Shown: piece by piece, positions 1-60,714 of the stretch
How the letters are laid out: every line of letters starts with the position of its first letter
Numbering within the stretch: the stretch's first letter is position 1
Source of the DNA: Rhynchopus sp. YZ270_cl-10
Taxonomy: Eukaryota
Direction of reading: 5' to 3'
Assembly (NCBI GenBank): GCA_964035575.1
Contig: OZ037838.1
Span: 496,001-560,000 of the forward strand
DNA: 64,000 nt
Notes under the pieces: model-generated
Database searches by the model: none
Seen by the model: only the letters and a program-made list of their open reading frames with translations
What the model was told of the DNA's origin: nothing
Made by a program: the position numbers and the translations under genes

Positions 1-574
1 GAATTTTTTACCCTTGAAAAGTGCATTTGAGGAAGTCACAATGCGTCAAAACGAAAAGGTCGTTTTTGGCACTTTTAAAACCGGGCTCCGCTGAGTTCAC
101 CATATTTTTGCTCGATTTATTTAGTGGAGTAACTATTACTTTATCGTATGTGTGGACAAAAATTTGGGACGGAGCGTAAGATAATTCCCTATGTATTTTC
201 CTTAAGGAAAATACAGGCAAAAATCCAGGTAAAAATCACTTTGTACAGACTATGCCTGGCGGGCACAGGGTGTGTCAAAACCAAAAAAAAATTGCTCGAA
301 TGGACGTTTCTGGGTTCCGGCATCTAGAGTCAAAAAAAATCTATTTTTTTTTTCGCGAAAATTTTTGACTTAACACTGGCTGTGCTTAGAAAACCCGAAT
401 TTTTTACCCTTGAAAAGTGCATTTGAGGAAGTCACAATGCGTCAAAACGAAAAGGTCGTTTTTGGCACTTTTAAAACCGGGCTCCGCTGAGTTCACCATA
501 TTTTTGCTCGATTTATTTAGTGGAGTAACTATTACTTTATCGTATGTGTGGACAAAAATTTGGGACGGAGCGTA
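1..574. repeat. Tandem copies of a ~397-bp AT-rich dispersed repeat
   Basis: 1-178 recurs at 398-574; about 177-530 matches the reverse complement of about 34316-34682. Confidence 0.8.
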
Positions 575-785
575 AATAAAGAAGGGGGGGTATATCATTT
601 TCAAAAAAGCGCGTTGCGTTCCCACTATCGTTTCCGCTGCGCTAGCGTTCCCACTCCATTCGGTTTCCTCTTACTTAGAGGGTCTTGGGTTTTTTTGCTG
701 GTACCATGGGTTACATTCATCACCACTCCCCTTCCCCTCCACTGACACATCACTCAACAGAGGACGGGCCTCCCCTGGTCACACA

Positions 786-1967
786 TCACTCACTGTTGTG
801 TGGGTGCAGATGCTGTGTCACAATGACGCCGTCTGATTGCGTAACCACAACAACACGTGAACACGGCGATATCGTAAATGCCCCCCCATTCTCGGTTTGC
901 GACAGAACACGCACACAGGACATGGTCGCCACATCATACTGGTGCACGTATGACTTGTAATACTCGTAATCGGGGTAAATGCTGCTGCAATCGGTGTCCT
1001 CATCATCCGTATACCATATAAATTCCCCAACCTCTACCCCCACCACAAGGTACTTCCCACACGGGGTGAACTGCATGCCCCAGACCCCACCCACATCAAC
1101 ACCGCGAAGAGCCGCACCACTCCAATCATAGAGGTGCACGGTGCTATAGTCCACCACAGCAAAGACAGAGGCAGACCGTGAAAGCGCCACTTCACACGAC
1201 CTACCCGCAGGCACACATGCCACAGCTTCACCTGTGTTCACATCCCACAGACGTGCGCTGTCCTCACTGGAGGTGGTCACCCACCCACCACAGTCCGACA
1301 GTGCCAGGTCCTTGCACTCTTCATGCGAGAGAGAGCGGAGCAACGTCAGGTCTTCGTCATACACAGAGACGCCGTCTTTGCCCTTCGAGACAACAACACA
1401 GCCACACGCAAACACTGAGTGCAAGTCAACAACACCGCCACGTCCGTATGAAACCGAGGGGCCGTCGACTTTGCGGACCACCTCCCCACCCGGAAGCGCA
1501 ACCTCGAGAAGGCAATCCTTGCATGCCAGGTAGCAGCGTGTCTTGCACTGCGAGATGGCAGGTGGACCGAACACTTCATTGTCCACTTTGAACGAGAAGA
1601 CAGTTTCAAAGGTTTCTGTGTCGAAACCGCCAACGTGCCCACTCTTGTTACTGTGGATGCAGAGCGTTCCACAACGTGACAGCGTCAACGACATCGCTTG
1701 CGGCTCTGTAGTGTACTCAGTAGGACACTTGATGTCGGCCAAGCGAGGACAGGCAAGCACAACCTGCACCCCTGCATCAAACGCAGTGTCCTGCAGACGG
1801 CACGTCCCCTCCAGCACCTGCGTGCCGATGCGCATCTCGACAGACGCAGGCGAGACAGCAAGCGCCCTGCACGCAACCTCCTTTGCCGCTGCAACGTCCC
1901 CCTCGCACGGCACCTCCACTGTCGCAGTCATGCCTGACTCTTCCAGCACAAAGGTCACGTCCATCAT
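786..1967 (-). CDS. UBL-beta-propeller family, copy 1 (intact)
   Basis: ORF 786..2027; conserved ATG start MMDVTFVLEE at 1967; ubiquitin-fold pattern followed by 7 repeats (LSRCG, ISQCK, FACG, SDCGGW, LSRSAS, FTPCGKY, ISPCSR). Confidence 0.85.
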   Translation of the reverse strand: MMDVTFVLEESGMTATVEVPCEGDVAAAKEVACRALAVSPASVEMRIGTQVLEGTCRLQDTAFDAGVQVVLACPRLADIKCPTEYTTEPQAMSLTLSRCGTLCIHSNKSGHVGGFDTETFETVFSFKVDNEVFGPPAISQCKTRCYLACKDCLLEVALPGGEVVRKVDGPSVSYGRGGVVDLHSVFACGCVVVSKGKDGVSVYDEDLTLLRSLSHEECKDLALSDCGGWVTTSSEDSARLWDVNTGEAVACVPAGRSCEVALSRSASVFAVVDYSTVHLYDWSGAALRGVDVGGVWGMQFTPCGKYLVVGVEVGEFIWYTDDEDTDCSSIYPDYEYYKSYVHQYDVATMSCVRVLSQTENGGAFTISPCSRVVVVTQSDGVIVTQHLHPHNSE

Positions 1968-4215: not shown

Positions 4216-5340
4216 TCACTCACTGTTGTGTGGGTACAGATGCCTTGTCACAATGTCGGTATCTCCTTCCAATACCACAACAACACGCGAACACGGCGAT
4301 ATCGCAAATACACCTGAACATTGCGGTATCACATGCACACAGGACATGGTCGCCACATCATACTGGTGCAGAGGTGTATTGTAATCGTCATCAGAATCCG
4401 TACCCTCTACCCTTACCACATCAAAGGTCCTCACCACAAGGTACTTCCCACACGGGGTGAAGTGCATGTCCTCGACATCCCCATCCATACCAACACTGCG
4501 AAGAGCCGCACCACTCCAGTCATAGAGCTGCACGTTGCCAGAGCACCCCACAGCAAAGACAGAGGCAGACCGTGAAAGCGCCACTCCACGCCACCCCTCC
4601 TCCAGCGGCACACATGCAACAGCTTCACCTGTGTTCACATCCCACAGACGTACGTTCCTCTCCTTGTTGGAGGAGGTGACCACCCACCCACCACAGTCCG
4701 ACACTCCCGCGTCCCAGCACCCTTCGTGCGAGAGAGAGCGGAGCAACGTCAGGTCTTCGTCATACACAGAGACGCCGTCTTTGCCCTTCGAGACAACAGC
4801 AACGCCACACGTCCGTATTGAAACCGACGAGCAGTCAATTTTGCGGAGCACCTCCCCACCCGGAAGCGCAACCTCGAGAAGGCCTTCCTTGTTGCACGGC
4901 AGGTAGCAGCGTGTCTTGCACTGCGAGATGGCAGGACGAGCGTACACTTTCAATGCGTCCAGTTTGAACGAGAAGACAGTGTCGAAGGTTTCTGTGTCGA
5001 AGCCGCCAACATGCCCAGTCCTGCTACAATAGACGCAGAGCGTTCCACAACGCGACAGTGACAAGTTGTCCACATGAATTGCAGTGTACTCAGCAGGACA
5101 CTTGATGTCGGCCAAGCGAGGACAGGCAAGCACAACCTGCACCCCTGCCTCAAACGCAGTGTCCTGCAGACGGCACGTCCCCTCCAGCACCTGCGTGCCG
5201 ATGCGCATCTCGACAGACGCAGGCGAGACAGCAAGCGCCGTGCACGCAACCTCCTTTGCCGCTGCAACGTCCGCCTCGCACGGCACCTCCACTGTCGCAG
5301 TCACGCCTGACTCTTCCAGCACAAAGGTCACATCCATCAT
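4216..5340 (-). CDS. UBL-beta-propeller copy 3 (intact)
   Basis: Full-length family ORF from MMDVTF to HLYPHNSE. Confidence 0.85.
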   Translation of the reverse strand: MMDVTFVLEESGVTATVEVPCEADVAAAKEVACTALAVSPASVEMRIGTQVLEGTCRLQDTAFEAGVQVVLACPRLADIKCPAEYTAIHVDNLSLSRCGTLCVYCSRTGHVGGFDTETFDTVFSFKLDALKVYARPAISQCKTRCYLPCNKEGLLEVALPGGEVLRKIDCSSVSIRTCGVAVVSKGKDGVSVYDEDLTLLRSLSHEGCWDAGVSDCGGWVVTSSNKERNVRLWDVNTGEAVACVPLEEGWRGVALSRSASVFAVGCSGNVQLYDWSGAALRSVGMDGDVEDMHFTPCGKYLVVRTFDVVRVEGTDSDDDYNTPLHQYDVATMSCVHVIPQCSGVFAISPCSRVVVVLEGDTDIVTRHLYPHNSE

Positions 5341-5971: not shown

Positions 5972-6946
5972 ATGAGAAAAGTTTATAAGATGACCCTAAG
6001 CCTCTCTGTGCTTAGTCACCTTATCATATTCGTTATCGCACAGCATCAGCTGCGCTGGCTTCTACAAGTTTGCTGTCAGGGCTGATGTCATTTCCCCAGC
6101 CGGAGTTCGTAATTTTGGCACGTACGATGACGTGTTCGAGCATGTGCATGGTGTAGCGCGGGTACGTAAAAACTGGGCGACGGTCGTAGCCAATAAGTAC
6201 GGGTGCGCCAATGGACCGGAGGCCCCGTGAGGAGGAGATGGCAGATGCGGGAAATGGGTTTTGAATCCCAAGGGCTTTGCACAGGTGGTGAAGCTTGTTG
6301 AGCAATGTGCGCAAGGCGGCGGCCCGTTCTCTAATGTTAGAGGTTGGCCGGAGAACATAGATCTTGTGGAAAATTTCCAAGTCAATGGCAAGTTCCACGC
6401 ATGTCACAGGCAGGTTGGCGGTGCTCCATTTCAGGAGGAGGCCCATAGGAGCATTCGCTTCAGTTCGTGGCGCTTCTGCTTGCATCTCGGATCATCGTCC
6501 TTCCCAAAGAAAGGGGCGAGCTGCCGGTAGATGGCCTCCTGGTATGGGGGCGCATCGAACACTTCGAAGTCCATATGCCATGGGTGGCGTGCAGGCGCTG
6601 TGGTCGTCCGCGAGGACAGGTCATCTACTGCGGCGGTGACGTCCAGCAGGTATCTCTGCACGTCGACGACGACCTGCTTGGGCGTGTTCGTGGGAGCTAT
6701 GCCATGCATAGCCAGGCAACTCGGGGTGTTCGGGCCGATCCTGTCGAGGAGAGGGCGGTGCGCTTCCTTCACGTTAGCAGACACAGTGTGCGGGCAAGTC
6801 CACAGCAGGTGCTTCGCCAACCCAGAGGTTGGTGTGAGGCATAAGGGGCACTGATTCACTTCGAGGTGTATGCCACCTCTCTTTGTTGACTCGTAGAGCA
6901 CAGCACCGTAGGGTGCGCGTAGAGTATTCGATGGGAGATGATACGA
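5972..6946 (-). mobile_element. 5'-truncated, frameshifted non-LTR retroposon fragment (family B)
   Basis: ORF pieces (about 6431-6946 and 6033..6485) carry CPLC..HLLWTCP, a Zn motif typical of non-LTR ORF2 C-termini; ends in the recurrent stem-loop; absent from the paralogous site near 20541. Confidence 0.7.
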
Positions 6947-6990
6947 AAAAAATATATTGCAACGCCTTCTGTCTGCCTGCGGGAGGCACT

Positions 6991-9195
6991 CTACCGCTGC
7001 CTTCTGCACCTCTGGGCAGCTCTGCTCAGTTGCTGTGCTATGCGTGCCTTGCGCTGTGCACGGACCACTGCAGGTGCCTTGCCCCAACCACCACCACCAC
7101 CACCCAGACACCTTCTCCCAGTATACCTCTCCTCATCCAAACAGGTAATGCAGCGGCAACCTGGGTTGCAGGGCGACTCGCATAGCGGCCCTTCGCTGTT
7201 GCCACAGAAGACACTGTTCACACGGCTTGCACCGATCACAGAGGGGCTGTGCTGTGCATGGTCAGCCGGAAGCGCACGATACCGTCGTGCGTTAAGCAGC
7301 ACCGCAAGGTCGAAGATGCGTTTCACGATACGTTCATCAGCACAGCGACCACTGAACGCAACATGCGACATCGTTCTGTACCACTGCGCATCTTCGTCAC
7401 CATCGGGGTCAACACGTTTGCACCATGAGGCATGAAGGCTTCGCACAACGTCAAGGTTTCTGAGTGTCGCCCATCCAGCAGGACCCCTGCTGGGGCCTGT
7501 AAGGAGAATGTCTGGAGAGATGTCGCAGGACTGAAGAAACGATAAATGCACGTCGTGTGCAGACAGAATGACATCGAGGGTGACTGCCGCACCCATGCGC
7601 ATGAGAAGTTGGCAGAGCTTCGGGTGTGCTGCGCTGCTCGATATCAGGCCCTTGAATGTGTCCTGCAGTATCTGGGGCTGATCCACCACCACACCCTGCT
7701 CCCTGCAGTGTCTTAAAATACGAAGCACGCATAGAACCTTCCCTGGTGTGTCCTCGTGGCCCCAACAGTGCGATGCGGAGCTACGCAACGCATAAGCAGT
7801 ATCGTCTGGAGAACGTTCAAACCCATCGAGCATCACATCGACGCAGCGGTGTGCTGCGCATTGCACTGCACTCTGCAGAGTCACCCCTGTACTCCCGTCC
7901 AGCTTGCTGCGGAGGAGCAGGTCAAGCTGGTCTGGGTTGTCGTTTTTGAGGATGTGTTCAAGATGGTACTCAAATGTGCTTGACGGATAGGAGCAGGCAG
8001 GCAGTGGAGAAGCAACATCGATGCCGTGCTCATGAAGGAGCATGTCGCGTGCCACGACAGAGTCTTTCTTCCAGAAGTCCTCCTCAACAACGTTGTGTGG
8101 GTACAGATGTTTCGTCACAATGACGCCATCTGGTTGCATAGCCACAACAACACGTGAACACGGCGATATCGCAAATGACCCATCGCTGCTTTGTGGTGGT
8201 AACACACGTACACAGGACATGGTCGCCACATCATACTGGTGCAGTTGGCCATTGTAAGCATCATCACCCTCGTTTTCAACATCTTCATCTGCATCTACCT
8301 TGACCACAAGGTACTTCCCACACGGAGTGAACTGCATGTCCTGGAGACCCCTACCCACATCAACACTGCGAAGAGCCGCACCACTCCAATCATAGAGGTG
8401 CACGTCGTTTTCCCCTGCCACAGCAAAGACAGAGGCAGACCGTGAAAGCGCCATTCTACACCAGAACCCCCCAGGCACACATACCACAGCAACACCTGTG
8501 TTCACATCCCACAAACGTGCGTTGTCCTCCTCCCAGGAGGAGGTGATCACCCACCCACCACAGTCCGACACTGCCACACGGCAGAACCCTTCGAGCAAGA
8601 GAGAGCGGAGCAACGTCAGGTCTTCGTCATACACAGAGACGCCGTCTTTGCCTTGGGAGACAACAACACCGCCACACGCGAACACTAGGGACGAGGGGCC
8701 GTCGACTTTGCGGATCACCTCCCCACCCGGAAGCGCAACCTCGAGAAGGAAATCCGCACACGCCAGGTAGCAGCGTGTCTTGCACCGTGAAATGGCAGGT
8801 GCAGCGACCACTTTAGTGTCCACTTTGAACGAGAAGACAGTGTCGAATGTTTCTGTGTCGAAGCAGCCAACATGCCCACTCCAGTCACCATAGATGCAGA
8901 GCGTTCCACAACGCGACAGCGACAAGTGTTCTGCATCCTCACTGTACTCAGCAGGACACTTGATGTCAGCAAAGCGGCGGGCAAGCACAACCTGCACCCC
9001 TGCATCAAACGCAGTGTCCTGCAGACGGCACGTCCCCTCCAGCACCTGCGTGCCGATGCGCATCTCGACAGACGCAGGCGAGACAGCAAGCGCCGTGCAC
9101 GCAACCTCCTTTGCCGCTGCAACGTCCGCCTCGCACGGCACCTCCACTGTCGCAGTCACGCCTGACTCTTCCAGCACAAAGGTCACATCCATCAT
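6991..9195 (-). CDS. UBL-beta-propeller copy 4, fused to a ~360-aa helical, Cys-rich and basic C-terminal extension
   Basis: Open frame reads through LYPHN into VVEEDFWKK... and ends RAAQRCRRQR. Confidence 0.8.
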   Translation of the reverse strand: MMDVTFVLEESGVTATVEVPCEADVAAAKEVACTALAVSPASVEMRIGTQVLEGTCRLQDTAFDAGVQVVLARRFADIKCPAEYSEDAEHLSLSRCGTLCIYGDWSGHVGCFDTETFDTVFSFKVDTKVVAAPAISRCKTRCYLACADFLLEVALPGGEVIRKVDGPSSLVFACGGVVVSQGKDGVSVYDEDLTLLRSLLLEGFCRVAVSDCGGWVITSSWEEDNARLWDVNTGVAVVCVPGGFWCRMALSRSASVFAVAGENDVHLYDWSGAALRSVDVGRGLQDMQFTPCGKYLVVKVDADEDVENEGDDAYNGQLHQYDVATMSCVRVLPPQSSDGSFAISPCSRVVVAMQPDGVIVTKHLYPHNVVEEDFWKKDSVVARDMLLHEHGIDVASPLPACSYPSSTFEYHLEHILKNDNPDQLDLLLRSKLDGSTGVTLQSAVQCAAHRCVDVMLDGFERSPDDTAYALRSSASHCWGHEDTPGKVLCVLRILRHCREQGVVVDQPQILQDTFKGLISSSAAHPKLCQLLMRMGAAVTLDVILSAHDVHLSFLQSCDISPDILLTGPSRGPAGWATLRNLDVVRSLHASWCKRVDPDGDEDAQWYRTMSHVAFSGRCADERIVKRIFDLAVLLNARRYRALPADHAQHSPSVIGASRVNSVFCGNSEGPLCESPCNPGCRCITCLDEERYTGRRCLGGGGGGWGKAPAVVRAQRKARIAQQLSRAAQRCRRQR

Positions 9196-9513: not shown

Positions 9514-10695
9514 TCACTCCCCTTCCCCCCCGCTTCCCTCCTCTCCACTGACGCAGTGCTCACCAGAGTATGGGTACAGATGCTGTGTCACAATGACGCC
9601 GTCTGATTGCATAACCATGACAACACGTGAACACGGCGATATCGCAAATTCCCCATTCTCGGTTTGCGACAGAACACGCACACAGGACATGGTCGCCACA
9701 TCGTACTGGTGCAGGTATGACCTGAAATCGGGGTAAATGCTGCTGCCATCAGTATCATCGGTATCCTCATCATCCATAAATTCCGCAACCTCTACCCCCA
9801 CCACAAGGTACTTCCCACACGGGGTGAACTGCATGCCCCCGACACCCCCACCCACATCAACACTGCGAAGAGCCGCACCACTCCAATCAAAGAGGCGTAC
9901 ACTGCTATCGCTCCCCACAGCAAAGACAGAGGCAGACCGCGAAAGCGCCACTACACACCACCTACCCGCAGGCACACATGCCACAGCTTCACCTGTGTTC
10001 ACATCCCACAGACGTGCGCTGTCCTCACTGGAGGTGGTCACCCACCCACCACAGTCCGACACTGCCAGGTCCCTGCACTCTTCGTGCGAGATAGAGCGGA
10101 GCAACGTCAGGTCTTTGTCATACACAGAGACTGCGTCTGTGCCCTTCGAGACAACAACACCACCACACGTCCGTACTGAAACCGAGGGGCCGTCGACTTT
10201 GCGGAGCACCTCCCCACCCGGAAGCGCAACCTCGAGAAGGCAATCCTTGCATGCCAGGTAGCAGCGTGTCTTGCACTGCGAGATGGCAGGTGGACCGAAC
10301 ACTTCATTGGCCACTTTGAACGAGAAGACAGTGTCGAAGGTTTCTGTGTCGAAGCCACCAACATGCCCACTCTCGTTACTGTGGACGCAGAGCGTTCCAC
10401 AACGTGACAACATCAACATCGTCGCTTGCGGCTCTGCAGTGTACTGAGCAGGACACTTGATGTCGGCCAAGCGAGGACAGGCAAGCACAACCTGCACCCC
10501 TGCATCAAACGCAGTGTCCTGCAGACGGCACGTCCCCTCCAGCACCTGCGTGCCGATGCGCATCTCGACAGACGCAGGCGAGACAGCAAGCGCCGTGCAC
10601 GCAACCTCCTTTGCCGCTGCAACGTCCGCCTCGCACGGCACCTCCACTGTCGCAGTCACGCCTGACTCTTCCAGCACAAAGGTCACATCCATCAT
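9514..10695 (-). CDS. UBL-beta-propeller copy 5 (intact, short Gly/Glu tail)
   Basis: Full-length family ORF ending SGEEGSGGEGE. Confidence 0.85.
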   Translation of the reverse strand: MMDVTFVLEESGVTATVEVPCEADVAAAKEVACTALAVSPASVEMRIGTQVLEGTCRLQDTAFDAGVQVVLACPRLADIKCPAQYTAEPQATMLMLSRCGTLCVHSNESGHVGGFDTETFDTVFSFKVANEVFGPPAISQCKTRCYLACKDCLLEVALPGGEVLRKVDGPSVSVRTCGGVVVSKGTDAVSVYDKDLTLLRSISHEECRDLAVSDCGGWVTTSSEDSARLWDVNTGEAVACVPAGRWCVVALSRSASVFAVGSDSSVRLFDWSGAALRSVDVGGGVGGMQFTPCGKYLVVGVEVAEFMDDEDTDDTDGSSIYPDFRSYLHQYDVATMSCVRVLSQTENGEFAISPCSRVVMVMQSDGVIVTQHLYPYSGEHCVSGEEGSGGEGE

Positions 10696-24185: not shown

Positions 24186-24968
24186 AAATCCAGTGAGTGG
24201 GGGGTTAGAAGGAAAAGCTGGAAAAAGTTGGCAGAGAAACCTGCACACCTGTCCCACCCCCCAAGCGCACCTACCTCTTGACTTACAAAGTTACTACAGT
24301 GAAATACAATACAATACAGTACAATACAAACAGACCACCTGATTTTTACCCCGCATATAGGCACGTACAGGTGCGTATAGGTCCGTACGGGTTTGCGGGT
24401 TTGCGCATAGGTGCGTATAGGTCCGTACGGGTTTGCGGGTTTGCGCATAGGTGCGTATAGGTCCGTACGGGTTTGCGGGTTTGCGCATAGGTGCGTATAG
24501 GTCCGTACGGGTTTGCGGGTTTGCGCATAGGTGCGTATAGGTCCGTACGGGTTTGCGGGTTTGCGCATAGGTGCGTATAGGTCCGTACGGGTTTGCGGGT
24601 TTGCGCATAGGTGCGTATAGGTCCGTACGGGTTTGCGGGTTTGCGCATAGGTGCGTATAGGTCCGTACGGGTTTGCGGGTTTGCGCATAGGTGCGTATAG
24701 GTCCGTACGGGTTTGCGGGTTTGCGCATAGGTGCGTATAGGTCCGTAGAGGACCGTCTAGGTACATATAGGGAATATACGCACCTGTACGTGCCTATATG
24801 CGGGGTAAAAATCAGGTGGTCTGTTTGTATTGTACTGTATTGTATTGTATTTCACTGTAGTAACTTTGTAAGTCAAGAGGTAGGTGCGCTTGGGGGGTGG
24901 GACAGGTGTGCAGGTTTCTCTGCCAACTTTTTCCAGCTTTTCCTTCTAAACCCCCACTCACTGGATTT
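24186..24968. repeat. Foldback: ~190-bp inverted arms around a 40-bp minisatellite
   Basis: Arms at about 24186-24378 and 24776-24968; unit gtgcgtataggtccgtacgggtttgcgggtttgcgcatag occurs 9 times plus a partial copy at 24371-24747. Confidence 0.9.
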
Positions 24969-37955: not shown

Positions 37956-38237
37956 GTGAGGATAAAGCCCAAAGACGGACGGTTTGTCTGGTGGTAAATG
38001 GAGGAGAGGGGTGAGGGGAGGAGGAAGGGGGTGAGGATGGCAAAAAGGAGCAATTCCTTTCGCTGCAAAGTAAGGTAATGGGTAGGGGAGGGGAGGTTCC
38101 ATGACTAACGATTGGGGAAGGAACTTTGGTGCTAAAAATACATTTTTTACTTTTGCGTATTTGACTCGCTGGGGTGTTTTTGCAATCACCAAAATCTCAA
38201 AATCGGGCAATGTACCCCGAAAAAACCAGGTCACACA

Positions 38238-39239
38238 TCACTCACTGTTGTGTGGATACAGATGCCTTGTCACAATGACGCCATCTGATTGCACTACCAT
38301 AACAACACGTGAACACGGTGATATCGCGAACGATGCACTCGTGCTATCCGATATCACATGCACACAGGACATGGTTGCCACATCATACTGGTGCAGCACA
38401 TGTGTAGTCCTCACCACAAGGTACTTCCCACACGGGGTGAACTGCATGTCCTCGACAAGCCCACCCACAGCAACACTGCGAAGAGCCGCACCACTCCAAT
38501 TAAAGAGCTGCACGATGCCATTCAGCCCCTCTACAGCAGAGCCCACCACAGCAAAGACAGAGGCAGACCGTGAAAGCGCCACTGCACAGAACCCACTCGC
38601 AGGCACACATACCACAGCTTCACCTGTGCTCACATCCCACAGACGTACGTTACAACGTCAGGTCTTCGTCATACACAGAGACGCCGTCTTTGCCCTGTGA
38701 GACAACAACACAGCCATACGCAAACACTGAGTACGAGGTGCCGTCGACTTTGCGGACCACCTCCCCACCCGGAAGCGCAACCTCGAGAAGACCTTTCCAA
38801 CACGCCAGGTAGCAGCGTGTCTTGCACTTCGAGATGGCAGGCGACCGTACACTTCATTGTCCACTTTGAACGAGAAGACAGTGTCAAAGGTTTCTGTGTC
38901 GAAGCCGCCAACGTGCCCATTCCTGCTACAATAGACGCAGCGTGTTCCACAACGCGACAGCGACAAGTTTACCGCGCGAGTTGCAGTGTACTCAGCAGGA
39001 CACTTGATGTCAGCAAAGCGGCAGGCAAGCACAACCTGAACCCCTGCATCAAACGCAGTGTCCTGCAGACGGCACGTCCCCTCCAGCACCTGCGTGCCGA
39101 TGCGCATCTCGACAGACGCAGGCGAGACAGCAAGCGCCGTGCACGCAACCTCCTTTGCCGCTGCAACGTCCGCCTCGCACGGCACCTCCACTGTCGCAGT
39201 CACGCCTGACTCTTCCAGCACAAAGGTCACATCCATCAT
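38238..39239 (-). pseudogene. UBL-beta-propeller copy 11 (frameshift near 38843, deletion in blade 4 near 38651)
   Basis: Split ORFs 38658..39239 and 38238..38633; the SDCGGW segment is missing. Confidence 0.8.
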
Positions 39240-39558: not shown

Positions 39559-40671
39559 TCACCACTCTTCCTCCCCTCTCCTGGTCACATCACTCACTGT
39601 TGTGTGGTACAGATGCCTTGTCACAATGACGCCATTTAATTTCGTAGCCACAAAAACACGTGAACACGGCGATATCGCAAATGACGTAGCATAGTCTCGC
39701 AGGACCACACGCACACAGGACATGGTTGCCACATCATACTCGTCCAGCATGTGTGTTCCCTTTACCACAAGGTACTTCCCACACGGGGTGAACTGCATGC
39801 ACTCGACATCCCCACGCACATCAACACTGCGAAGAGCCGCACCACTCCAATCAAAGAGGTGCACGGTCTTTTCCTCCACCACAGCAAAGACAGAGGCAGA
39901 CCGTGAAAGCGCCACGAGACCCTGCCACCCGTCCGCAGGCACACATGCCACAGCTTCACCTGTGTTCACATCCCACAGACGTGTGTTGTTTTCCCTGTTG
40001 GAGGAGGTGATCACCCACCCACCACAGTCCGACACTGCCACGTCCCTGCACACTTCGTGCGAGAGAGAGCGGAGCAACGTCAGGTCTTCGTCATACACAG
40101 AGACGCCGTCTTTGCCCTTCGAGACAACAACACTGCCACACGCAAACACTGATTCCGAGTAGCCGTCGACTTTGCGGACCACCTCCCCACCCGGAAGCGC
40201 AACCTCGAGAAGGCAATCCTTGTGGCACGGCAGGTAGCAGCGTGTCTTGCACTGCGAGACGGCAGGCGGACCTAGCACAATATGGGGTAGGTTGAACTCA
40301 AAGACACGGGAAAAGGTTTCTGTGTCCAAGCCAACAACCTTCCGATCACAAAAATAGATGCAGAGCGTTCCACAACGCGACAGCGACATCACTACGTTCA
40401 ACGACGACTCCTTCAAATTGTACTCAGCAGGACACTTGATGTTGGCAAAGCGGCGGGCAAGCACAACCTGCACCCCTGCATCAAACGCAGTGTCCTGCAG
40501 ACGGCACGTCCCCTCCAGCACCTGCGTGCCGATGCGCATCTCGACAGACGCAGGCGAGACAGCAAGCGCCGTGCACGCAACCTCCTTTGCCGCTGCAACG
40601 TCCGCCTCGCACGGCACCTCCACTGTCGCAGTCACGCCTGACTCTTCCAGCACAAAGGTCACATCCATCAT
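39559..40671 (-). CDS. UBL-beta-propeller copy 12 (1-nt loss in the last codons alters the C-terminus)
   Basis: tgtgtggtac instead of tgtgtgggtac near 39606; otherwise full length. Confidence 0.7.
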   Translation of the reverse strand: MMDVTFVLEESGVTATVEVPCEADVAAAKEVACTALAVSPASVEMRIGTQVLEGTCRLQDTAFDAGVQVVLARRFANIKCPAEYNLKESSLNVVMSLSRCGTLCIYFCDRKVVGLDTETFSRVFEFNLPHIVLGPPAVSQCKTRCYLPCHKDCLLEVALPGGEVVRKVDGYSESVFACGSVVVSKGKDGVSVYDEDLTLLRSLSHEVCRDVAVSDCGGWVITSSNRENNTRLWDVNTGEAVACVPADGWQGLVALSRSASVFAVVEEKTVHLFDWSGAALRSVDVRGDVECMQFTPCGKYLVVKGTHMLDEYDVATMSCVRVVLRDYATSFAISPCSRVFVATKLNGVIVTRHLYHTTVSDVTRRGEEEW

Positions 40672-43543: not shown

Positions 43544-44668
43544 TCACTCACTGTTGTGTGGGTACAGATGCCTTGTCGCAATGATGCCATTTGCTTGCAT
43601 GACCACAACAACACGCGAACACGGCGATATCGCAAAGGACCCTCCGACACGGGTTTGCGGTATCACACGCACACAGGACATGGTCGCCACATCATACTGG
43701 TGCAGGTGTACATCGTAATCAGGCCAATCTTCGTCATCATCATTATACTCCGCTACACCTACCCCCACCACAAGGTACTTCCCACACGGGGTGAACTGCA
43801 TGCTCTCGGCATCCCCACCCACATCAACACTGCGAAGAGCCGCACCACTCCAATCATAGAGGTGCACGTCGCCAGAGCACCCCACAGCAAAGACAGAAGC
43901 AGACCGTGAAAGCGCCACTGCTTCGTCCCGCCACCCCGCAGGCACACATGCCACAGCTTCACCTGTGTTCACATCCCACAGACGTGCGTTCATCTCACTC
44001 AGGGAGGAAGTGATCACCCACCCACCACAGTCCGACACTGCCACACGCACAAACCCTTCATGCGAGAGAGAGCGGAGCAACGTCAGGTCTTCGTCATACA
44101 TAGAGACTCCGTCATTGCCCTTCGAGACAACAACACCGCCACACGCAAACACTGAGTACGAGATGCCGTCGACTTTGCGGAGCACCTCCCCACCTGGAAG
44201 CGCAACCTCGAGAAGGTGATCCTCACACGCCAGGTAGCAGCGTGTCTTGCACTGCGAGATGGCAGGTGTAGCGTCTGCTTCGGCTGCGTCCACTTTGAAC
44301 GAGAAGACAGTGTCGAAGGTTTCTGTGTCGAAGCCGCCAACATGACCACTACTGTGACTATAGACGCAGAGCGTTCCACAACGCGACAGTGACCAGCATC
44401 CCACATGCGTTGCAGTGTACTCAGCAGGACACTTGATATCGGCAAAGCGGCGGGCAAGCACAACCTGCACCCCTGCATCAAACGCAGTGTCCTGCAGACG
44501 GCACGTCCCCTCCAGCACCTGCGTGCCGATGCGCATCTCGACAGACGCAGGCGAGACAGCAAGCGCCGTGCACGCAACCTCCTTTGCCGCTGCAACATCC
44601 GCCTCGCACGGCACCTCCACTGTCGCAGTCACGCCTGACTCTTCCAGCACAAAGGTCACATCCATCAT
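43544..44668 (-). CDS. UBL-beta-propeller copy 14 (intact)
   Basis: Full-length family ORF. Confidence 0.85.
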   Translation of the reverse strand: MMDVTFVLEESGVTATVEVPCEADVAAAKEVACTALAVSPASVEMRIGTQVLEGTCRLQDTAFDAGVQVVLARRFADIKCPAEYTATHVGCWSLSRCGTLCVYSHSSGHVGGFDTETFDTVFSFKVDAAEADATPAISQCKTRCYLACEDHLLEVALPGGEVLRKVDGISYSVFACGGVVVSKGNDGVSMYDEDLTLLRSLSHEGFVRVAVSDCGGWVITSSLSEMNARLWDVNTGEAVACVPAGWRDEAVALSRSASVFAVGCSGDVHLYDWSGAALRSVDVGGDAESMQFTPCGKYLVVGVGVAEYNDDDEDWPDYDVHLHQYDVATMSCVRVIPQTRVGGSFAISPCSRVVVVMQANGIIATRHLYPHNSE

Positions 44669-46394: not shown

Positions 46395-47525
46395 TCACTC
46401 ACTGTTGTGTGGGTACAGATGCCTTGTCGCAATGACGCCATCAGGTTGCATAACCACAAGAGTACGTGAACACGGAGATATCGCAAATGACACAACTGAG
46501 CTATGCGGCATCACATGCACACAGGACATGGTCGCCACATCATACTGGTGCAGGTAGGAGTTGTACACCAGATCATCGGTGTCCACACCATTTATGAACT
46601 CCGTAATCACTACCCCCACCACAAGGTACTTCCCACACGGGGTGAACTGCATGTCGTCGACAAGCCCACTGACATCAACACTGCGAAGAGCCGCACCACT
46701 CCAGTCATAGAGCTGCACGTTGCCAGAGCCCACCACAGCAAAGACAGAGGCAGACCGTGAAAGCGCCACTTGTACGCACGACCACTCGTCGGACTCCACC
46801 GGCACACAGGCCACAAAAATACCCATGTTCACATCCCACAGACGTGCGTTGTTATCCTTGTTGGAGGAGGTGATCACCCACCCACCACAGTCTGAAACTG
46901 CCACCTCCTCACACTCTTCGTGCGAGAGAGAGCGGAGCAACGTCAGGTCTTCGTCATACACAGAGACGACGTTGACTCCCATCGAGACAACAACACCGCC
47001 ACACGCGACCACTGAGTGCGAGAGGCTGTCAACTTTGCGGACCACCTCCCCACCCGGAAGCGCAACCTCGGCAAGGTAACCCAAACACGGCATGTAGCAG
47101 CGTGTCTTGCACTGCGAGATGGCAGGTACACCGGACACTTTAGTGTCCACTTTGAACGAGAAGACAGTGTCGAAGGTTTCTGTGTCAAAGCCGCCAACAT
47201 ACCCACTCCCATTACCATAGATGCAGAGCGTCCCACAACACGACAGTCTTATGCTTCCCGCATGCGTTGCAGTGTACTCAGCAGGACACTTGATGTCGGC
47301 AAAGCGGCGGGCAAGCACAACCTGCACCCCTGCATCAAACGCAGTGTCCTGCAGACGGCACGTCCCCTCCAGCACCTGCGTGCCGATGCGCATCTCGACA
47401 GACGCAGGCGAGACAGCAAGCGCCGTGCACGCAACCTCCTTTGCCGCTGCAACGCCCGCCTCGCACGGCACCTCCACTGTCGCAGTCACGCCTGACTCTT
47501 CCAGCACAAAGGTTACATCCATCAT
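46395..47525 (-). CDS. UBL-beta-propeller copy 15 (intact)
   Basis: Full-length family ORF, 376 aa. Confidence 0.85.
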   Translation of the reverse strand: MMDVTFVLEESGVTATVEVPCEAGVAAAKEVACTALAVSPASVEMRIGTQVLEGTCRLQDTAFDAGVQVVLARRFADIKCPAEYTATHAGSIRLSCCGTLCIYGNGSGYVGGFDTETFDTVFSFKVDTKVSGVPAISQCKTRCYMPCLGYLAEVALPGGEVVRKVDSLSHSVVACGGVVVSMGVNVVSVYDEDLTLLRSLSHEECEEVAVSDCGGWVITSSNKDNNARLWDVNMGIFVACVPVESDEWSCVQVALSRSASVFAVVGSGNVQLYDWSGAALRSVDVSGLVDDMQFTPCGKYLVVGVVITEFINGVDTDDLVYNSYLHQYDVATMSCVHVMPHSSVVSFAISPCSRTLVVMQPDGVIATRHLYPHNSE

Positions 47526-49855: not shown

Positions 49856-50983
49856 TCACTCACTGTTGTGTGGGTACAGATGCGTGGACACAATAACGCC
49901 ATTTGTTTGCATGACCACAAGAATACGTGAACACGGAGATATCGCAAAAGACCCGCCATAGCTTTGCGGTATCACATGCACACGGGACATGGTCGCCACA
50001 TCATACTGGTGCAGGTGTACATCGTAATCAGGCCATTCGTCATCATCATTAAACTCCGCAACCTCCACCCTCACCACAAGGTACTTCCCACACGGGGTGA
50101 ACTGCATGTCCTTGACATCCCCACGCACATCAACACTGCGAAGAGCCGCACCACTCCAATCAAAGAGGTGCACGTTACCAGAGCCCTCCACAGCAAAGAC
50201 AGAGGCAGACCGTGAAAGCGCCACCCCTCCACACCACCCCTCCTCCAGCGGCACACATGCCACATCTTCACCTGTGTTCACATCCCACAGACGGGCGTTG
50301 TTCTCATTGCTGGAGGAGGTGATCACCCACCCACCACAGTCCGACACTGCCACACGCCCGCACTCTTCGTGCGAGAGAGAGCGGAGCAACGTCAGGTCTT
50401 CGTCATACACAGAGACGCCGTCTTTGCCCTCAGAGACAACAACACCGCCACACGCGGACACAGACTCTGAGATACCGTTGACTTTGCGGAGCACCTCCCC
50501 ACCCGGAAGCGCAACCTCGCATATGCTCTCCTTGCACGTCAGGTAGCAGCGTTTCTTGCAAGCTGAGATGGCAGGTGCACCGTACGCACATACGCCCATG
50601 TCGTCGACAAAGAAGGTGCTCTCAAAGGTTTCTGTATCCAAACCATACATGCTCCTATTACATTCGTCATACAAGACACAAAGCGTCCCACAACGCGAGA
50701 GTGACCAGCAGATCAACATCCCCTCTACACTGTGCATAGCAGGACACTTGATGTCAGCAAAGCGGCGGGCAAGCACAACCTGCACCCCTGCATCAAACGC
50801 AGTGTCCTGCAGACGGCACGTCCCCTCCAGCACCTGCGTGCCGATGCGCATCTCGACAGACGCAGGCGAGACAGCAAGCGCCGTGCACGCAACCTCCTTT
50901 GCCGCTGCAACGTCCGCCTCGCACGGCACCTCCACTGTCGCAGTCACGCCTGACTCTTCCAGCACAAAGGTCACATCCATCAT
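49856..50983 (-). CDS. UBL-beta-propeller copy 16 (intact)
   Basis: Family start MMDVTF at 50983 within ORF 49856..51349. Confidence 0.85.
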   Translation of the reverse strand: MMDVTFVLEESGVTATVEVPCEADVAAAKEVACTALAVSPASVEMRIGTQVLEGTCRLQDTAFDAGVQVVLARRFADIKCPAMHSVEGMLICWSLSRCGTLCVLYDECNRSMYGLDTETFESTFFVDDMGVCAYGAPAISACKKRCYLTCKESICEVALPGGEVLRKVNGISESVSACGGVVVSEGKDGVSVYDEDLTLLRSLSHEECGRVAVSDCGGWVITSSSNENNARLWDVNTGEDVACVPLEEGWCGGVALSRSASVFAVEGSGNVHLFDWSGAALRSVDVRGDVKDMQFTPCGKYLVVRVEVAEFNDDDEWPDYDVHLHQYDVATMSRVHVIPQSYGGSFAISPCSRILVVMQTNGVIVSTHLYPHNSE

Positions 50984-51388: not shown

Positions 51389-52509
51389 TCACTCGTTGTG
51401 GGGGTGCAGATGTCTTGTCGCAACGTTGGTGCAATCGAAAGACACATATGATAGAAACACAACCACACGTGAACACGGTGATATCACAAATGACTGATCG
51501 GTGACGTCTGGGATCACAAGTACACAAGACATGGTCGCCACATCATACTGGTGCAGCTCTTGAGGTTCTCCATCGTCAGTAAACTTATGTACGTAGACCA
51601 CAAGGTACTTCCCACACGGGGTGAACTGCACGCTAACGACACTTCCAGAGACAGTGGCGTTCTGAAGAGCCGCACCACTCCAGTCGTAGAGCTGCACTCG
51701 CTCTGCCTCATCCACACAGCCCCCCACAGCAAAGACAGAGGCAGACCATGAAATTGAAACCGCTACAGCGCACGTGGACATAGGCACACATGCCACAGCT
51801 TCACCTGTGTTCACATCCCACAGACGTGCGTTCTTTTCCTTGACGGAGGAGGTGATCACCCACCCACCACAGTCCGACACTGCCATGTGTCTACACACCC
51901 TGTGCAAGAGAGTGCGGAGCAACGTCAGGTCTTCGTCATACACAGAGACGCCGTCTTCGCCTTGGGAGACAACAGCGTTGCCACACGCGGATACTAACTT
52001 CGAGGGGCCGTCGACTTTGCGAAGCACCTCCCCACCCGGAAGCGCAAGCTCGAGAAGGCGATCCACACACGGTAGGTAGCAACGTGTCTTGCACCGTGCG
52101 ATGGCAGGTGGACCGCAATGAAACAGTCACTCTCAACAGTAAAAACGAAGGCAGTTTCGAAGGTTTCTGTATCGAAGCCGCCAACACATGTACTTCTACT
52201 ATAAAGGCAGAGCGTACCACAACGCGACAGCGACAAATTCATCACTCCCCCATCCACACTGTACTCAGCAGGACACTTGATGTCGGCAAAGCGGCGGGCA
52301 AGCACAACCTGCACCCCTGCATCAATCGCAGTGTCCTGCAGACGGCACGTCCCCTCCAGCACCTGCGTGCCGATGCGCATCTCGACAGACGCAGGCGAGA
52401 CAGCAAGCGCCGTGCACGCAACCTCCTTTGCCGCTGCAACGTCCGCCTCGCACGGCACCTCCACTGTCGCAGTCACGCCTGACTCTTCCAGCACAAAGGT
52501 CACATCCAT
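51389..52509 (-). pseudogene. UBL-beta-propeller copy 17 (frameshift near 52110)
   Basis: Split ORFs 51994..52668 and 51389..52066. Confidence 0.75.
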
Positions 52510-53683: not shown

Positions 53684-54785
53684 TCACTCACTGTTGTGTG
53701 GGTACAGATGCCTTGTTGCAATGCCGTTTGTTGTTGCACCCTCGAACACAACCACACGCGAACACGGTGATATCGCAAAGGACCCACTATAGAGTTGCGA
53801 TATCACACGCACACAGGTCGTTGTCACCACATCATACTGGTGTAGTTGCACATCAGATTCCGCAACCTCCACCCTTACCACAAGGTACTTCCCACACGCG
53901 GTAAACTGCATGTCCTTGACATCCCCATCCACATCAACACTGCGAAGAGCCGCACCACTCCAATCATAGAGCTGCACGTTACCAGAGCCCTCCACAGCAA
54001 AGACAGAGGCAGACCGTGAAAGCGCCAGTTTACACCACCTCACCGCAGGCACACATGCCACAGCTTCACCTGTGTTCACATCCCACAGACGTACGTTCTG
54101 CTCCCTGCTGGAGGAGGTGATCACCCACCCACCACAGTCCGACACTGCCACATTCCAGCACCCTTCGTGCGAGAGAGAGCGGAGCAACGTCAGGTCTTCG
54201 TCATACACAGAGACGACGTTGTGGCCCTTCGAGACAACAACACCACCACACGTCCGTATTGAAACGGAGGGGCAGTCGACTTTGCGGAGCACCTCCCCAC
54301 CCGGAAGCGCAACCTCAAGACGGCAATCCCCACACGCCAGGTAGCAGCGTGTCTTGCACCGTGAGATGGCAGGCCGACCGTACACTTCATTGTCCACTTT
54401 GAACGAGAAGACAGTTTCAAAGGTTTCTGTGTCGAAGCCACCAACATGCCTGCCCCTGCTACAATAGACGCAGAGCGTTCCACAACGCGACAGCGACAAG
54501 TTTTCCACATCTGTTGCATTGTACTGAGCAGGACACTTGATATCTGCCAAGCGAGGACAGGCAAGCACAACCTTGCACCCCTGCATCAAACGCAGTGTCC
54601 TGCAGACGGCACGTCCCCTCCAGCACCTGCGTGCCGATGCGCATCTCGACAGACGCAGGCGAGACAGCAAGCGCCGTGCACGCAACCTCCTTTGCCGCCG
54701 CAACGTCCGCAACGTCCGCCTCGCACGGCACCTCCACTGTCGCAGTCACGCCTGACTCTTCCAGCACAAAGGTCACATCCATCAT
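53684..54785 (-). pseudogene. UBL-beta-propeller copy 18 (1-nt insertion near 54573; 9-bp duplication ADVADV)
   Basis: cacaaccttgcaccc versus family cacaacctgcaccc; ORFs 54459..54845 and 53684..54712. Confidence 0.75.
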
Positions 54786-55441: not shown

Positions 55442-56560
55442 TCACTCACTGTCGTGTGGGTACAGATGTCTTGTCGCAATGACGCCATTTGTTTGCATGA
55501 CCACAAGAATACGTGAACACGGTGATATCGCAAATGACCCTCCAGAGAGTAGCGGGATCACATGCACACGGGACATGGTCGCCACATCATACTGGTGCAG
55601 GTGTACATCGTAAACAGTCCAATCTTCGTCATCATAATTACACTTTTCTACCCCCACCACAAAGTACTTCCCACACGGGGTGAACTGCATGTCCTTGACA
55701 TCCCCACCCACATCAACACTGCGAAGAGCCGCACCACTCCAATCAAAGAGCTGCACGCTCTTTCCCATATGTCCCCCCACAGCAAAGACAGAGGCAGACC
55801 GTGAAAGCGCCACGAGACACTGCCACCCGTCCGCAGGCACACATGCCACAACTTCACCTGTGTTCACATCCCACAGACGTGCGTTCTTGTCCTTCCTGGA
55901 GGAGGTGATCACCCACCCACCACAGTCCGACACTGCCATGCCCCTGCATGCTTCATGAGAGAGAGAGCGGAGCAACGTCAGGTCTTCGTCGTACACAGAG
56001 ACGCCGTCTTCGCCCTTCGAGACAACAACACCACCACACGTTCGTACTGAAACCGAGGGGCAGTCGACTTTGCGGAGCACCTCCCCACCCGGAAGCGCAA
56101 CTTCGAGAAGGCAATCCCCACACGGCAGGTAGCAGCGTGTCTTGCACCGTGAGATGGCAGGCGGACCGAATACATTGTCCACTTTGAACGAAAAGACAGT
56201 GTCAAAGGTTTCTGTGTCGAAGCCGCCAACATACCCAGTACAGTCACCATATACGCAGAGCGTTCCACAACACGACAGCGACAAGTAGTCTGCTTGCTGC
56301 CGCCAACTGTACTCAGCAGGACACTTGATGTCAGCAAAGCGGCGGGCAAGCACAACCTGCACCCCTGCACCAAACGCAGTGTCCTGCAGACGGCACGTCC
56401 CCTCCAGCACCTGCGTGCCGATGCGCATCTCGACAGACGCAGGCGAGACAGCAAGCGCCGTGCACGCAACCTCCTTTGCCGCTGCAACGTCCGCCTCGCA
56501 CGGCACCTCCACTGTCGCAGTCACGCCTGACTCTTCCAGCACAAAGGTTACATCCATCAT
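55442..56560 (-). CDS. UBL-beta-propeller copy 19 (intact)
   Basis: Family start at 56560 within ORF 55442..56698. Confidence 0.85.
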   Translation of the reverse strand: MMDVTFVLEESGVTATVEVPCEADVAAAKEVACTALAVSPASVEMRIGTQVLEGTCRLQDTAFGAGVQVVLARRFADIKCPAEYSWRQQADYLSLSCCGTLCVYGDCTGYVGGFDTETFDTVFSFKVDNVFGPPAISRCKTRCYLPCGDCLLEVALPGGEVLRKVDCPSVSVRTCGGVVVSKGEDGVSVYDEDLTLLRSLSHEACRGMAVSDCGGWVITSSRKDKNARLWDVNTGEVVACVPADGWQCLVALSRSASVFAVGGHMGKSVQLFDWSGAALRSVDVGGDVKDMQFTPCGKYFVVGVEKCNYDDEDWTVYDVHLHQYDVATMSRVHVIPLLSGGSFAISPCSRILVVMQTNGVIATRHLYPHDSE

Positions 56561-60479: not shown

Positions 60480-60714
60480 GTCATTTTACTCACATGTGGG
60501 CCCCCCCCCACGATTTTTTTCCCGGCTTTTGGGGGGGTGAAAATAAAATTTTTTTTTGGAAAATTTAAAAAAAATCTTGATGGTGTGCTCTTACTCCCCC
60601 CGATACCTTTCTCGCGCCCCAAGAACCATCTAAGGGAGTTAGAGGGTGGGCGTGTTTTCCTAGAATTTGACGGACGGAGCTCGTAGAACCCAACGAGGAA
60701 TGAGAAAAAAGCGG

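What the first reader, a model, noticed from the sequence alone, without database searches (positions are those of the whole stretch)
786..1745. Variation maps to one face of the propeller, in a CDR-like pattern
Seen across copies (copy 1 coordinates given): near-invariant blocks EVALPGGEV, VYDEDLTLLRS, SDCGGW, LWDVNTG, LSRSASVFAV, DWSGAAL, FTPCGKY, QYDVATMS and ISPCSR alternate with variable stretches. The variable stretches sit just before each strand A (for example NEVFGPP, TKVVAAP, AEADATP) and between strands B and C (HSNKSG, GDWSG, YDECNRS). Established: D-A and B-C loops form the top, ligand-binding face of beta-propellers; A-B and C-D loops form the bottom face. Inference: diversifying selection is acting on a single binding surface.
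Basis: partly seen in the sequence, partly recalled or inferred. Interest (0 to 1): 0.85.

Follow-up and report, generated by a model that had tools for sequence, protein, structure and literature searches.

The report
Diplonemid hypervariable ubiquitin-propeller receptor array
A single-celled plankton organism (likely a diplonemid) carries over a hundred neighbouring copies of a gene whose predicted ubiquitin-like handle stays almost identical while one face of its predicted propeller differs in nearly every copy, likely a selection-driven library of intracellular binding proteins, with targets and function untested.

Summary
Observation confirmed; interpretation partly supported. The window holds 19 minus-strand copies (7 defective) of a gene for a ubiquitin-like (UBL) domain fused to a seven-bladed WD40-type propeller. 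111 of the 120 best database relatives lie on the two contigs flanking the window's gap. The host is likely a diplonemid. With faces defined from the predicted structure, 64 of 128 top-half columns but 1 of 134 bottom-half columns exceed 2 bits of entropy. With rate variation, multi-base changes, separate trees or ungapped columns modelled, the top face still shows dN/dS about 3 to 4 at 30 to 50% of sites (2ΔlnL 27 to 36; neutral maximum 6.8 in 9 simulations). The bottom face shows none (2.6). Silent diversity decays with distance from hypervariable codons, as expected if selection shields the loops from gene conversion that homogenises the rest. Best reading: a recombining repertoire of cytosolic binders on a constant UBL adaptor, analogous to nematode F-box and fungal HNWD systems. 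Expression and ligands are untested.

The parts
786..1967 (-). Copy 1 (c01), intact UBL + 7-blade propeller gene, 393 aa
1743..1967 (-). Ubiquitin-like (beta-grasp) domain of copy 1, residues 1-75; nearly invariant at amino-acid and silent sites
   Evidence: model of the copy-14 domain, pLDDT 83.6; Foldseek TM 0.72-0.79 to ubiquitin/ISG15; VIA Z up to 12.3; pS 0.021
786..1742 (-).
1689..1709 (-). Top-face loop D7-A1, hypervariable
1635..1655 (-). Top-face loop B1-C1, hypervariable
1563..1589 (-). Top-face loop D1-A2, hypervariable
1512..1520 (-). Top-face loop B2-C2
1416..1463 (-). Top-face loop D2-A3, with an 11-codon insertion private to copy 1
1377..1385 (-). Top-face loop B3-C3 (least variable of the 14)
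1305..1319 (-). Top-face loop D3-A4
1257..1268 (-). Top-face loop B4-C4
1191..1208 (-). Top-face loop D4-A5
1140..1154 (-). Top-face loop B5-C5
1077..1094 (-). Top-face loop D5-A6
948..1040 (-). Top-face hairpin B6-C6: long, acidic, anchor-to-anchor length 7-34 residues, 119 distinct versions in 120 proteins
879..899 (-). Top-face loop D6-A7
825..845 (-). Top-face loop B7-C7
2843..4027 (-). c02, premature stop at 2912-2914 removes the last strand
4216..5340 (-). c03, intact
6991..9195 (-). c04, intact, read on into a long C-terminal extension of no known family
9514..10695 (-). c05, intact, closest relative of c01
11925..13137 (-). c06, frameshift near codon 350 (blade 7 out of frame)
14431..15564 (-). 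c07, intact
15885..17090 (-). c08, broken in the UBL and near codons 112-114 (5' limit approximate)
18790..19917 (-). c09, intact
20586..22526 (-). c10, intact mosaic: c01-like at blade 1, c04-like at blade 7 and extension
38238..39239 (-). c11, frameshifted
39559..40671 (-). c12, open, short B6-C6 hairpin, altered last codons
41769..42891 (-). c13, frameshifted
43544..44668 (-). c14, intact (search query P0002)
46395..47525 (-). c15, intact
49856..50983 (-). c16, intact
51389..52509 (-). c17, frameshift in the D1-A2 loop region
53684..54785 (-). c18, frameshift in the UBL
55442..56560 (-). c19, intact

Best explanation
This is a tandem array of genes for a predicted ubiquitin-like domain fused to a predicted seven-bladed propeller, in which variation is confined to the propeller's top face; it likely works as a library of intracellular binders that bring many different foreign or conflict-related proteins to one constant partner through the ubiquitin-like domain. 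Shown by calls: the array, the two folds (as models), the face-restricted variation, exchange between copies, and a dN/dS of about 3 at a third to a half of top-face codons after controls. Inferred, step 1: gene conversion between copies keeps the 225-base UBL almost identical and the short bottom-face blocks similar, and shuffles loops between copies. Inferred, step 2: selection for new specificities removes conversions that would overwrite a loop, so silent as well as replacement differences pile up around the loops. Broken copies could act as donors. Inferred and weakest, step 3: the proteins are cytosolic, the top face binds proteins of endosymbionts, viruses or selfish elements, and the UBL docks the complex on a ubiquitin-system machine (proteasome, Cdc48/p97 or a cullin ligase) for disposal, as proposed for nematode F-box proteins. 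My odds: steps 1-2 about 0.8, a recognition role about 0.6, the ubiquitin-disposal output about 0.35.
For: Array: 19 copies in the window. 120 of 120 listed relatives are 70-100% identical and nearly full length; 83 lie on the contig holding the window's right-hand copies and 28 on the contig holding its left-hand copies (my count). Face mapping. Pairwise identity among the 120 proteins: UBL 96%, bottom 87%, top 45%. Each of 13 of the 14 top loops has 99-119 distinct versions in 120 proteins; B3-C3 has 72. Selection on the top half with gamma rate variation: omega 3.3, 2ΔlnL 36.3; with multi-base changes omega 3.0, 33.4; bottom half 2.6. Ungapped equal-length loops only, 107 columns: omega 3.2-4.1, 27.0-29.0. 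Four segment-specific trees: omega 3.2, 26.6; F61 frequencies: 32.5. Nine neutral simulations with rate variation, multi-base changes and shuffled trees gave at most 6.8. Exchange: PHI p<=0.001; loop-to-loop distance correlations fall from 0.09 (adjacent loops) to about 0; r2 is near independence beyond 3 residues. c10 is 0.07 from c01 and 0.16 from c04 in blade 1, but 0.21 and 0.01 in blade 7. Three unrelated 5' flanks precede nearly the same UBL DNA. UBL four-fold-site diversity is 0.008, below the 0.045 of the shared 5' flank. Silent diversity at amino-acid-invariant codons falls 0.269, 0.147, 0.114, 0.075, 0.000, 0.014 with distance from hypervariable codons; propeller only rho -0.29, p 4.5e-4, n 139. 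This is the 'peak of divergence' signature described in PMC3924837 (passages). Tyr and His make up 5.0% each of hypervariable positions against 0.0-0.1% of bottom loops. Only 1 of 120 proteins has a 19-residue hydropathy window above 1.8, and the N-terminus is the UBL, so a cytosolic location is likely. Diplonemids host secreting Holosporaceae and Rickettsiaceae endosymbionts (PMC8061765 passages).
Against: Mean pN is only about equal to pS over the top half (0.341 vs 0.328), and the closest pair c01-c05 has 11 silent changes in 91.8 sites against 32 replacements in 298. One-ratio omega for the top half is only 1.35, and 1.01 on the 28 columns far from indels. The grid method with site-wise silent rates flags only 17 of 133 top columns, and also 5 of 146 bottom or mid columns. 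The selection tests rest on 14 of the 19 window copies, on my own implementation of the codon models, and on 9 calibration runs. Paralogues from one assembly are compared, not alleles. The UBL has an arginine where ubiquitin's Ile44 lies (register; residue numbering recalled), so a canonical proteasome-receptor contact is doubtful. 7 of 19 copies are defective. No ligand, partner, localisation or phenotype is shown.
Confidence: 0.6

Rival explanations
1. Neutral escape: the top loops are simply unconstrained, conversion homogenises the framework, and once loops diverge by indels they stop being converted. No positive selection is involved.
For: pN is about equal to pS on the top half. The whole-gene M2a signal vanishes with rate variation (2.4). 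Neutral data with gamma rates mimic M2a statistics of 48-145. 7 of 19 copies are defective.
Against: The omega-3 class persists with rate variation, multi-base changes, separate trees and ungapped columns (27-36 vs neutral maximum 6.8). Equally exposed bottom loops are under purifying selection (omega 0.28). In an ordinary WD40 the top face is where change is least tolerated (PMC4754046 passages). The top halves of the strands vary as well as the loops (29 of 77 columns above 2 bits).
Confidence: 0.15
2. A targeted mutator (error-prone repair or templated mutagenesis aimed at the loops) raises the mutation rate on the top-face codons, as in antibody genes or diversity-generating retroelements.
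For: Silent diversity is 1.8-fold higher at top four-fold sites than bottom ones (0.186 vs 0.103) and decays over about 10 codons. Multi-base changes improve the fit. Loop insertions in c01 and c10 look like local duplications.
Against: No base preference: change rates from A, C, G, T on the top half are 1.29, 1.13, 1.20, 0.93. The only reverse transcriptase in the window is a LINE-type RT-RNase H. Fourteen short targets spaced by 30-60 bases are hard to aim at. Selection against conversion predicts the same gradient with no new machinery.
Confidence: 0.08
3. Selection on the top face is real but the role is not defence. The proteins would be outward-acting effectors or decoys used against prey or host cells, or players in an internal genetic conflict, with the UBL serving as a spacer or oligomerisation module.
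For: The UBL lacks the canonical hydrophobic patch residue (numbering recalled). No full-length relative from a named diplonemid surfaced, which points to a young, lineage-specific arms race of unknown kind.
Against: No signal peptide or membrane segment is evident. The constant-N-domain, selected-C-domain layout in tandem arrays matches the F-box pattern (PMC8665587 passages).
Confidence: 0.16
4. Assembly or sequencing artefact: collapsed or error-rich repeats create the variation.
For: A 200-base N gap lies inside the array (11583-11782), and six copies carry frameshifts.
Against: Variation respects codon frame and structure. Copy-specific loops occur letter for letter in short-read contigs of runs X1 and X2, which may come from the same sample as the assembly but use different data.
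Confidence: 0.01

Closest known systems
Nematode F-box (and MATH-BTB) ubiquitin-ligase adaptor expansions
   Same: Hundreds of lineage-specific tandem paralogues; constant N-terminal adaptor under purifying selection; C-terminal target-binding domain with dN/dS peaks; proposed to recognise foreign proteins (PMC8665587 passages).
   Different: The N-terminal module here is a beta-grasp UBL, not an F-box or BTB. The binder is a WD40-type propeller. The host is unicellular. Silent-site homogenisation of the N-domain is extreme here.
Podospora anserina HNWD NLRs (het-d, het-e)
   Same: WD40 propeller sensor with hypervariable, diversifying positions on the interaction surface, plus concerted evolution (PMC12222747 abstract and passages).
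   Different: No NACHT or HET domain here. Exchange is between whole genes, not between near-identical repeats in one gene. Four variable codons per repeat there; 14 different loops with length variation here.
MHC, plant R-gene and self-incompatibility clusters evolving by conversion plus selection
   Same: Divergence peaks at selected sites amid homogenised sequence; mosaic copies; pseudogenes retained in the cluster (PMC3924837 passages).
   Different: Different folds and multicellular hosts; function is established there and not here.
NLE1/Rsa4 and WDR12/Ytm1 (UBL + WD40 ribosome-assembly factors)
   Same: Same domain order (recalled). An NLE + WD40 cluster was rank 2 in the Atlas search at 0.85, a lead only.
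   Different: Those are conserved single-copy genes (recalled). No Pfam NLE match was listed.
Hypervariable BTB-Kelch arrays in sea squirts
   Same: Tandem arrays of a constant ubiquitin-system adaptor plus a propeller with fast-evolving top loops.
   Different: BTB-BACK-Kelch in animals; unrelated sequence; AI notes, not evidence.

Membership tests
WD40-type seven-bladed beta-propeller | Seven four-stranded blades with velcro closure | tested here: met
   DSSP on the model gives strands A-D for blades 1-6, A-C at the C-terminus and D at 84-86; Foldseek E 1e-16 to G-beta, PkwA
WD40-type seven-bladed beta-propeller | Pfam WD40 repeat above the curated cut-off | tested here: inconclusive
   Copy 1 scores 23 bits against 27; distant member P0196 scores 31.6; the profile finds PkwA, WDR61, WDR5 at E 1e-15 to 1e-8
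WD40-type seven-bladed beta-propeller | Asp-His-Ser/Thr-Trp tetrads in most blades | tested here: not met
   Only blade 4 keeps conserved His215, Ser233, Trp241; the usual His and Asp positions in D-A and B-C loops are the hypervariable ones elsewhere (tetrad definition). A divergent WD40, which does not affect the fold assignment.
Integral (type II) ubiquitin-like domain | Beta-grasp fold superimposable on ubiquitin | tested here: met
   pLDDT 83.6; TM 0.72-0.79, rmsd 1.4-2.5; Z 12.3, rmsd 1.8, 76 aligned; Pfam ubiquitin E 0.007 for P0196
Integral (type II) ubiquitin-like domain | Fused in a larger protein, no di-glycine after the last strand | tested here: met
   No di-glycine follows the last strand in the 14 copies of A1; not a conjugatable modifier
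Proteasome shuttle UBLs (Rad23/Dsk2 type) | Ile44-type hydrophobic patch | tested here: not met
   Arg46 occupies the position, by the register (ubiquitin numbering recalled); invariant in 120 of 120
Proteasome shuttle UBLs (Rad23/Dsk2 type) | Binds Rpn1/Rpn10/Rpn13 | not tested
   No host proteasome sequence was in hand; no complex prediction was run
Fungal HNWD NLRs | NACHT and HET domains | tested here: not met
   370-390 aa proteins fully accounted for by UBL + propeller
Fungal HNWD NLRs | Near-identical WD repeats within one gene | tested here: not met
   No tandem repeat reported inside any copy; blades differ in sequence
Fungal HNWD NLRs | Diversifying selection on the propeller's binding face with concerted evolution | tested here: met
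   (works like, is not a member)
F-box / BTB cullin-ligase adaptors | F-box, BTB or SOCS-box domain | tested here: not met
   None in Pfam scans; the N-domain folds as a beta-grasp
F-box / BTB cullin-ligase adaptors | Constant N-domain plus positively selected C-domain in tandem lineage-specific arrays | tested here: met
NLE1/WDR12 (NLE domain + WD40) | Pfam NLE domain and midasin-binding acidic loop | tested here: inconclusive
   No NLE match listed; Atlas lead at 0.85; the loop was not tested
Diversity-generating retroelements | Adenine-specific mutagenesis | tested here: not met
   All four bases change at similar rates

The most novel reading that the evidence does not exclude
A single-celled eukaryote has a germ-line, recombining, antibody-like repertoire of several hundred cytosolic receptors. 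Fourteen independently shuffled hypervariable loops sit on one propeller face, coupled through an invariant ubiquitin-like handle to protein disposal, and the system is used against endosymbiotic bacteria or viruses. This would be a protist innate-immune system built on a UBL-WD40 scaffold, which my literature searches did not find described.
Probability: 0.3. Interest if true: 0.88.

Novelty: new variant of a known kind. Interest (0 to 1): 0.68.

Why it matters
How protists recognise intracellular invaders is largely open, and diplonemids are abundant marine plankton that carry endosymbionts. This array gives a concrete, testable candidate: one constant docking domain and more than a hundred natural binding-face variants. 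It would extend to Euglenozoa, on a different scaffold, the design seen in nematode F-box and fungal HNWD genes. It is also a natural scaffold library, showing which 60-70 positions of a WD40 propeller can change freely. And it is a clean case in which standard dN/dS tests are inflated by conversion-driven differences in silent divergence.

Tried and rejected
No whole genome was held, so DNA analyses use only window copies. Whole-gene M1a/M2a and M7/M8a/M8 were rejected as evidence. Recombination alone does not mimic the signal (20 neutral runs, maximum 15.0); rate variation does (20 runs, 48-145). One one-ratio fit (UBL, permissive columns) did not converge and is ignored. The longest-identical-tract test (34 of 171 pairs beyond all 400 permutations) ignores clustering of variable sites and is not used as support. 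Frameshift positions are too few to show a bias to loops. Sequence searches with the array's own UBL found no ubiquitin relative; only distant members and the fold search did. No RNA holder was listed among sequencing runs; this says nothing on expression. Read depths were not used for copy number. No full-length relative with a species name appeared; these searches are limited by word index, length and a top-150 listing, so absence from other diplonemids is not shown. No Rfam family in the window. The C-terminal extension of c04 and c10 matched no Pfam family and was not folded. Complex prediction was not run: no candidate partner. Literature: searches listed no description of this family. 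The main text of the D. papillatum genome paper PMC10161547 has 0 occurrences of WD40, ubiquitin or propeller; its supplements were not read and could bear on novelty, as could subscription papers outside the library. No earlier scan notes exist for this genome or sequence.

Full report
What is there. The window is eukaryotic DNA with one strand of intronless genes. tblastn with copy 1 finds 19 copies of one gene between 786 and 56560, all on the minus strand. Twelve are open through the propeller with normal, altered or extended ends, one has a premature stop, and six are frameshifted. The best named relatives of the neighbouring FtsX-domain gene are a transcript labelled Rhum (50%), Diplonema papillatum (45%) and one labelled Hpha (40%). 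I read the labels as Rhynchopus humris and Hemistasia phaeocysticola from recall. The host is therefore likely a diplonemid. A protein search with copy 14 returned 414 hits at E<=0.001 among 7998 candidates; the 120 listed are 70-100% identical over 96-100% of the query. The window's own left-hand copies are listed on a 0.46-Mb contig and its right-hand copies on a 2.7-Mb contig, which fits a split at the N gap (11583-11782). By my count 28 and 83 of the 120 lie on those two contigs, so the locus holds at least 111 distinct copies. Far more divergent full-length members (21-29% identity to P0196) occur on other large ENA contigs.

Anatomy. AlphaFold2 on a 120-sequence alignment gives a seven-bladed propeller with velcro closure, closest to G-beta, PkwA and WDR5. 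The N-terminal 75 residues were low-confidence in that model because they barely vary. With a 20-row alignment that included divergent members they fold at pLDDT 83.6 and match ubiquitin, ISG15 and the Dsk2/Rad23 UBLs (TM 0.72-0.79; Z up to 12.3). No di-glycine follows, so this is an integral UBL. An invariant arginine sits at the position of ubiquitin's Ile44 (register; numbering recalled). There is no evident signal or membrane segment.

The observation. I assigned each residue to top loop, bottom loop, or the upper or lower half of a strand from the DSSP strands alone, using the published rule that D-A and B-C loops form the top face (PMC3195729, passages). In the 111 aligned proteins that the window does not encode, mean entropy is 2.41 bits in top loops, 1.67 in upper strand halves, 0.45 in lower halves, 0.28 in bottom loops and 0.12 in the UBL. 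64 of 128 top columns and 1 of 134 bottom columns exceed 2 bits. Columns with more than 30% gaps were left out. This is not the default for WD40 proteins, whose tetrad His and Asp lie in these loops and whose top face tolerates change least (PMC3195729 and PMC4754046, passages).

Selection, first pass. I wrote codon models (M0, M1a, M2a, M7, M8a, M8) and applied them to 14 of the 19 copies. The five copies broken mid-gene were left out, the out-of-frame tails of c06 and c12 were masked, and c04 and c10 were cut at the propeller end. On 243 columns at least four codons from any indel, M2a beats M1a by 111 with omega 5.0, and M8 beats M8a by 111. On 367 permissive columns, 55 of 59 sites with posterior above 0.95 are in the top half, 3 mid-strand, 1 lower strand.

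Selection, controls. Silent divergence is very uneven: pS is 0.021 in the UBL, 0.135 in the bottom half and 0.328 in the top half, against pN of 0.016, 0.080 and 0.341. Neutral simulations showed that shuffled trees alone give statistics up to 15, but site-to-site rate variation gives 48-145 with apparent omega mostly 3-6. The first-pass tests are therefore not evidence. With gamma rate variation in null and alternative, the strict whole-gene statistic drops to 2.4 and the bottom half to 2.6. The top half keeps omega 3.3 on 31% of sites (36.3), and omega 3.0 on 49% with double and triple changes allowed (33.4). It survives restriction to 107 ungapped columns from loops of modal length (27.0-29.0; B6-C6 dropped), four segment-specific trees (26.6) and F61 frequencies (32.5). 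Nine matched neutral simulations reached at most 6.8. A grid method with site-wise silent rates is more conservative: 17 of 133 top and 5 of 146 bottom or mid columns. Positive selection on part of the top face is thus well supported but moderate, and a few dimorphic bottom or side positions (such as 121, 164, 190, 247) are unresolved.

How the pattern is likely made. The copies exchange DNA. PHI is significant (p<=0.001), linkage between polymorphic residues is near independence beyond three residues, and loop distances are almost uncorrelated between loops (a star-like history would also lower linkage). c10 switches from c01-like to c04-like along its length. Three unrelated upstream sequences lead into almost the same UBL DNA, whose silent sites are less variable than the shared 5' flank (0.008 vs 0.045). 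Silent diversity at amino-acid-invariant codons falls steadily with distance from the nearest hypervariable codon; the two farthest bins are mostly UBL, but the trend holds within the propeller. That gradient is what is expected when selection preserves differences against gene conversion (PMC3924837, passages). A local mutator would also give it, but the change spectrum has no base bias.

What it likely does. A constant docking module and a diversified binding face, in a large lineage-specific tandem array with pseudogenes, is the layout of nematode F-box genes, proposed to recognise foreign proteins (PMC8665587, passages). The propeller behaves like the sensor of Podospora HNWD receptors (PMC12222747, abstract and passages). 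Hypervariable positions are rich in Tyr, His, Asn and acidic residues relative to bottom loops. Diplonemids harbour bacterial endosymbionts with many secreted proteins (PMC8061765, passages). I therefore favour cytosolic recognition of foreign or conflict proteins, with the UBL handing them to the ubiquitin system. This last step is inference only, and the missing Ile44 patch argues against the textbook shuttle contact.

Novelty and verdict. It is not an HNWD NLR, an F-box/BTB adaptor or a DGR by their defining features; it works like the first two. No description of the family surfaced or 82 (search listings), or in the main text of PMC10161547 (term search; supplements unread). I rate it a new variant of a known kind, interest 0.68: real, statistically robust in its structural pattern, moderately robust in its selection signal, and functionally untested.

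Noticed in passing
window 6991-8085 and 20586-21353 (-): c04 and c10 read on past the propeller into a near-identical extension (about 365 and 255 aa; c10 lacks an internal part) with helical-repeat-like character and no Pfam match.
   Followed up: partly
UBL residues 24 and 64 (copy 1: 1896-1898 and 1776-1778): Two polymorphic positions (D/K/N and D/G/E) in an otherwise nearly invariant UBL, entropy above 1.1 bits; unexplained.
   Followed up: no
window 60687-63458 (+): Long open frame with reverse transcriptase and RNase H, followed by a 30-base A run at 63838-63867; likely an ingi-like LINE (clade name recalled).
   Followed up: partly
window 6431-7132 (-): Frame with a cysteine/histidine motif that may be a decayed LINE C-terminus, directly after the c04 extension; no Pfam match.
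   Followed up: partly
window 27539-30832 (-): FtsX-domain permease-like gene with relatives in diplonemids, amoebozoans and ciliates.
   Followed up: partly
window 36618-38102 (-): Unrelated-looking gene whose sequence suggests another small domain plus propeller; no Pfam match and not hit by the array's UBL profile.
   Followed up: partly
window 45475-46140 (-): USB1/HVSL-like 2H phosphodiesterase gene embedded in the array.
   Followed up: no
window 16989-18350 (-): 453-aa gene inside the array with only a weak kinesin-motor hint, E 0.24.
   Followed up: no
window 48669-49078 and 24369-24747: Perfect tandem arrays: 7-mer x 58.6 and 40-mer x 9.5, both 100% identical units.
   Followed up: no
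window 1-575: About 397-base direct repeat (1-183 recurs near 398-575) just past the end of the array.
   Followed up: no
copy 1 residues 172-182 (1422-1454) and c10 D1-A2 loop: Loop insertions that resemble duplicates of adjacent strands, suggesting unequal exchange as a source of loop-length variation.
   Followed up: no
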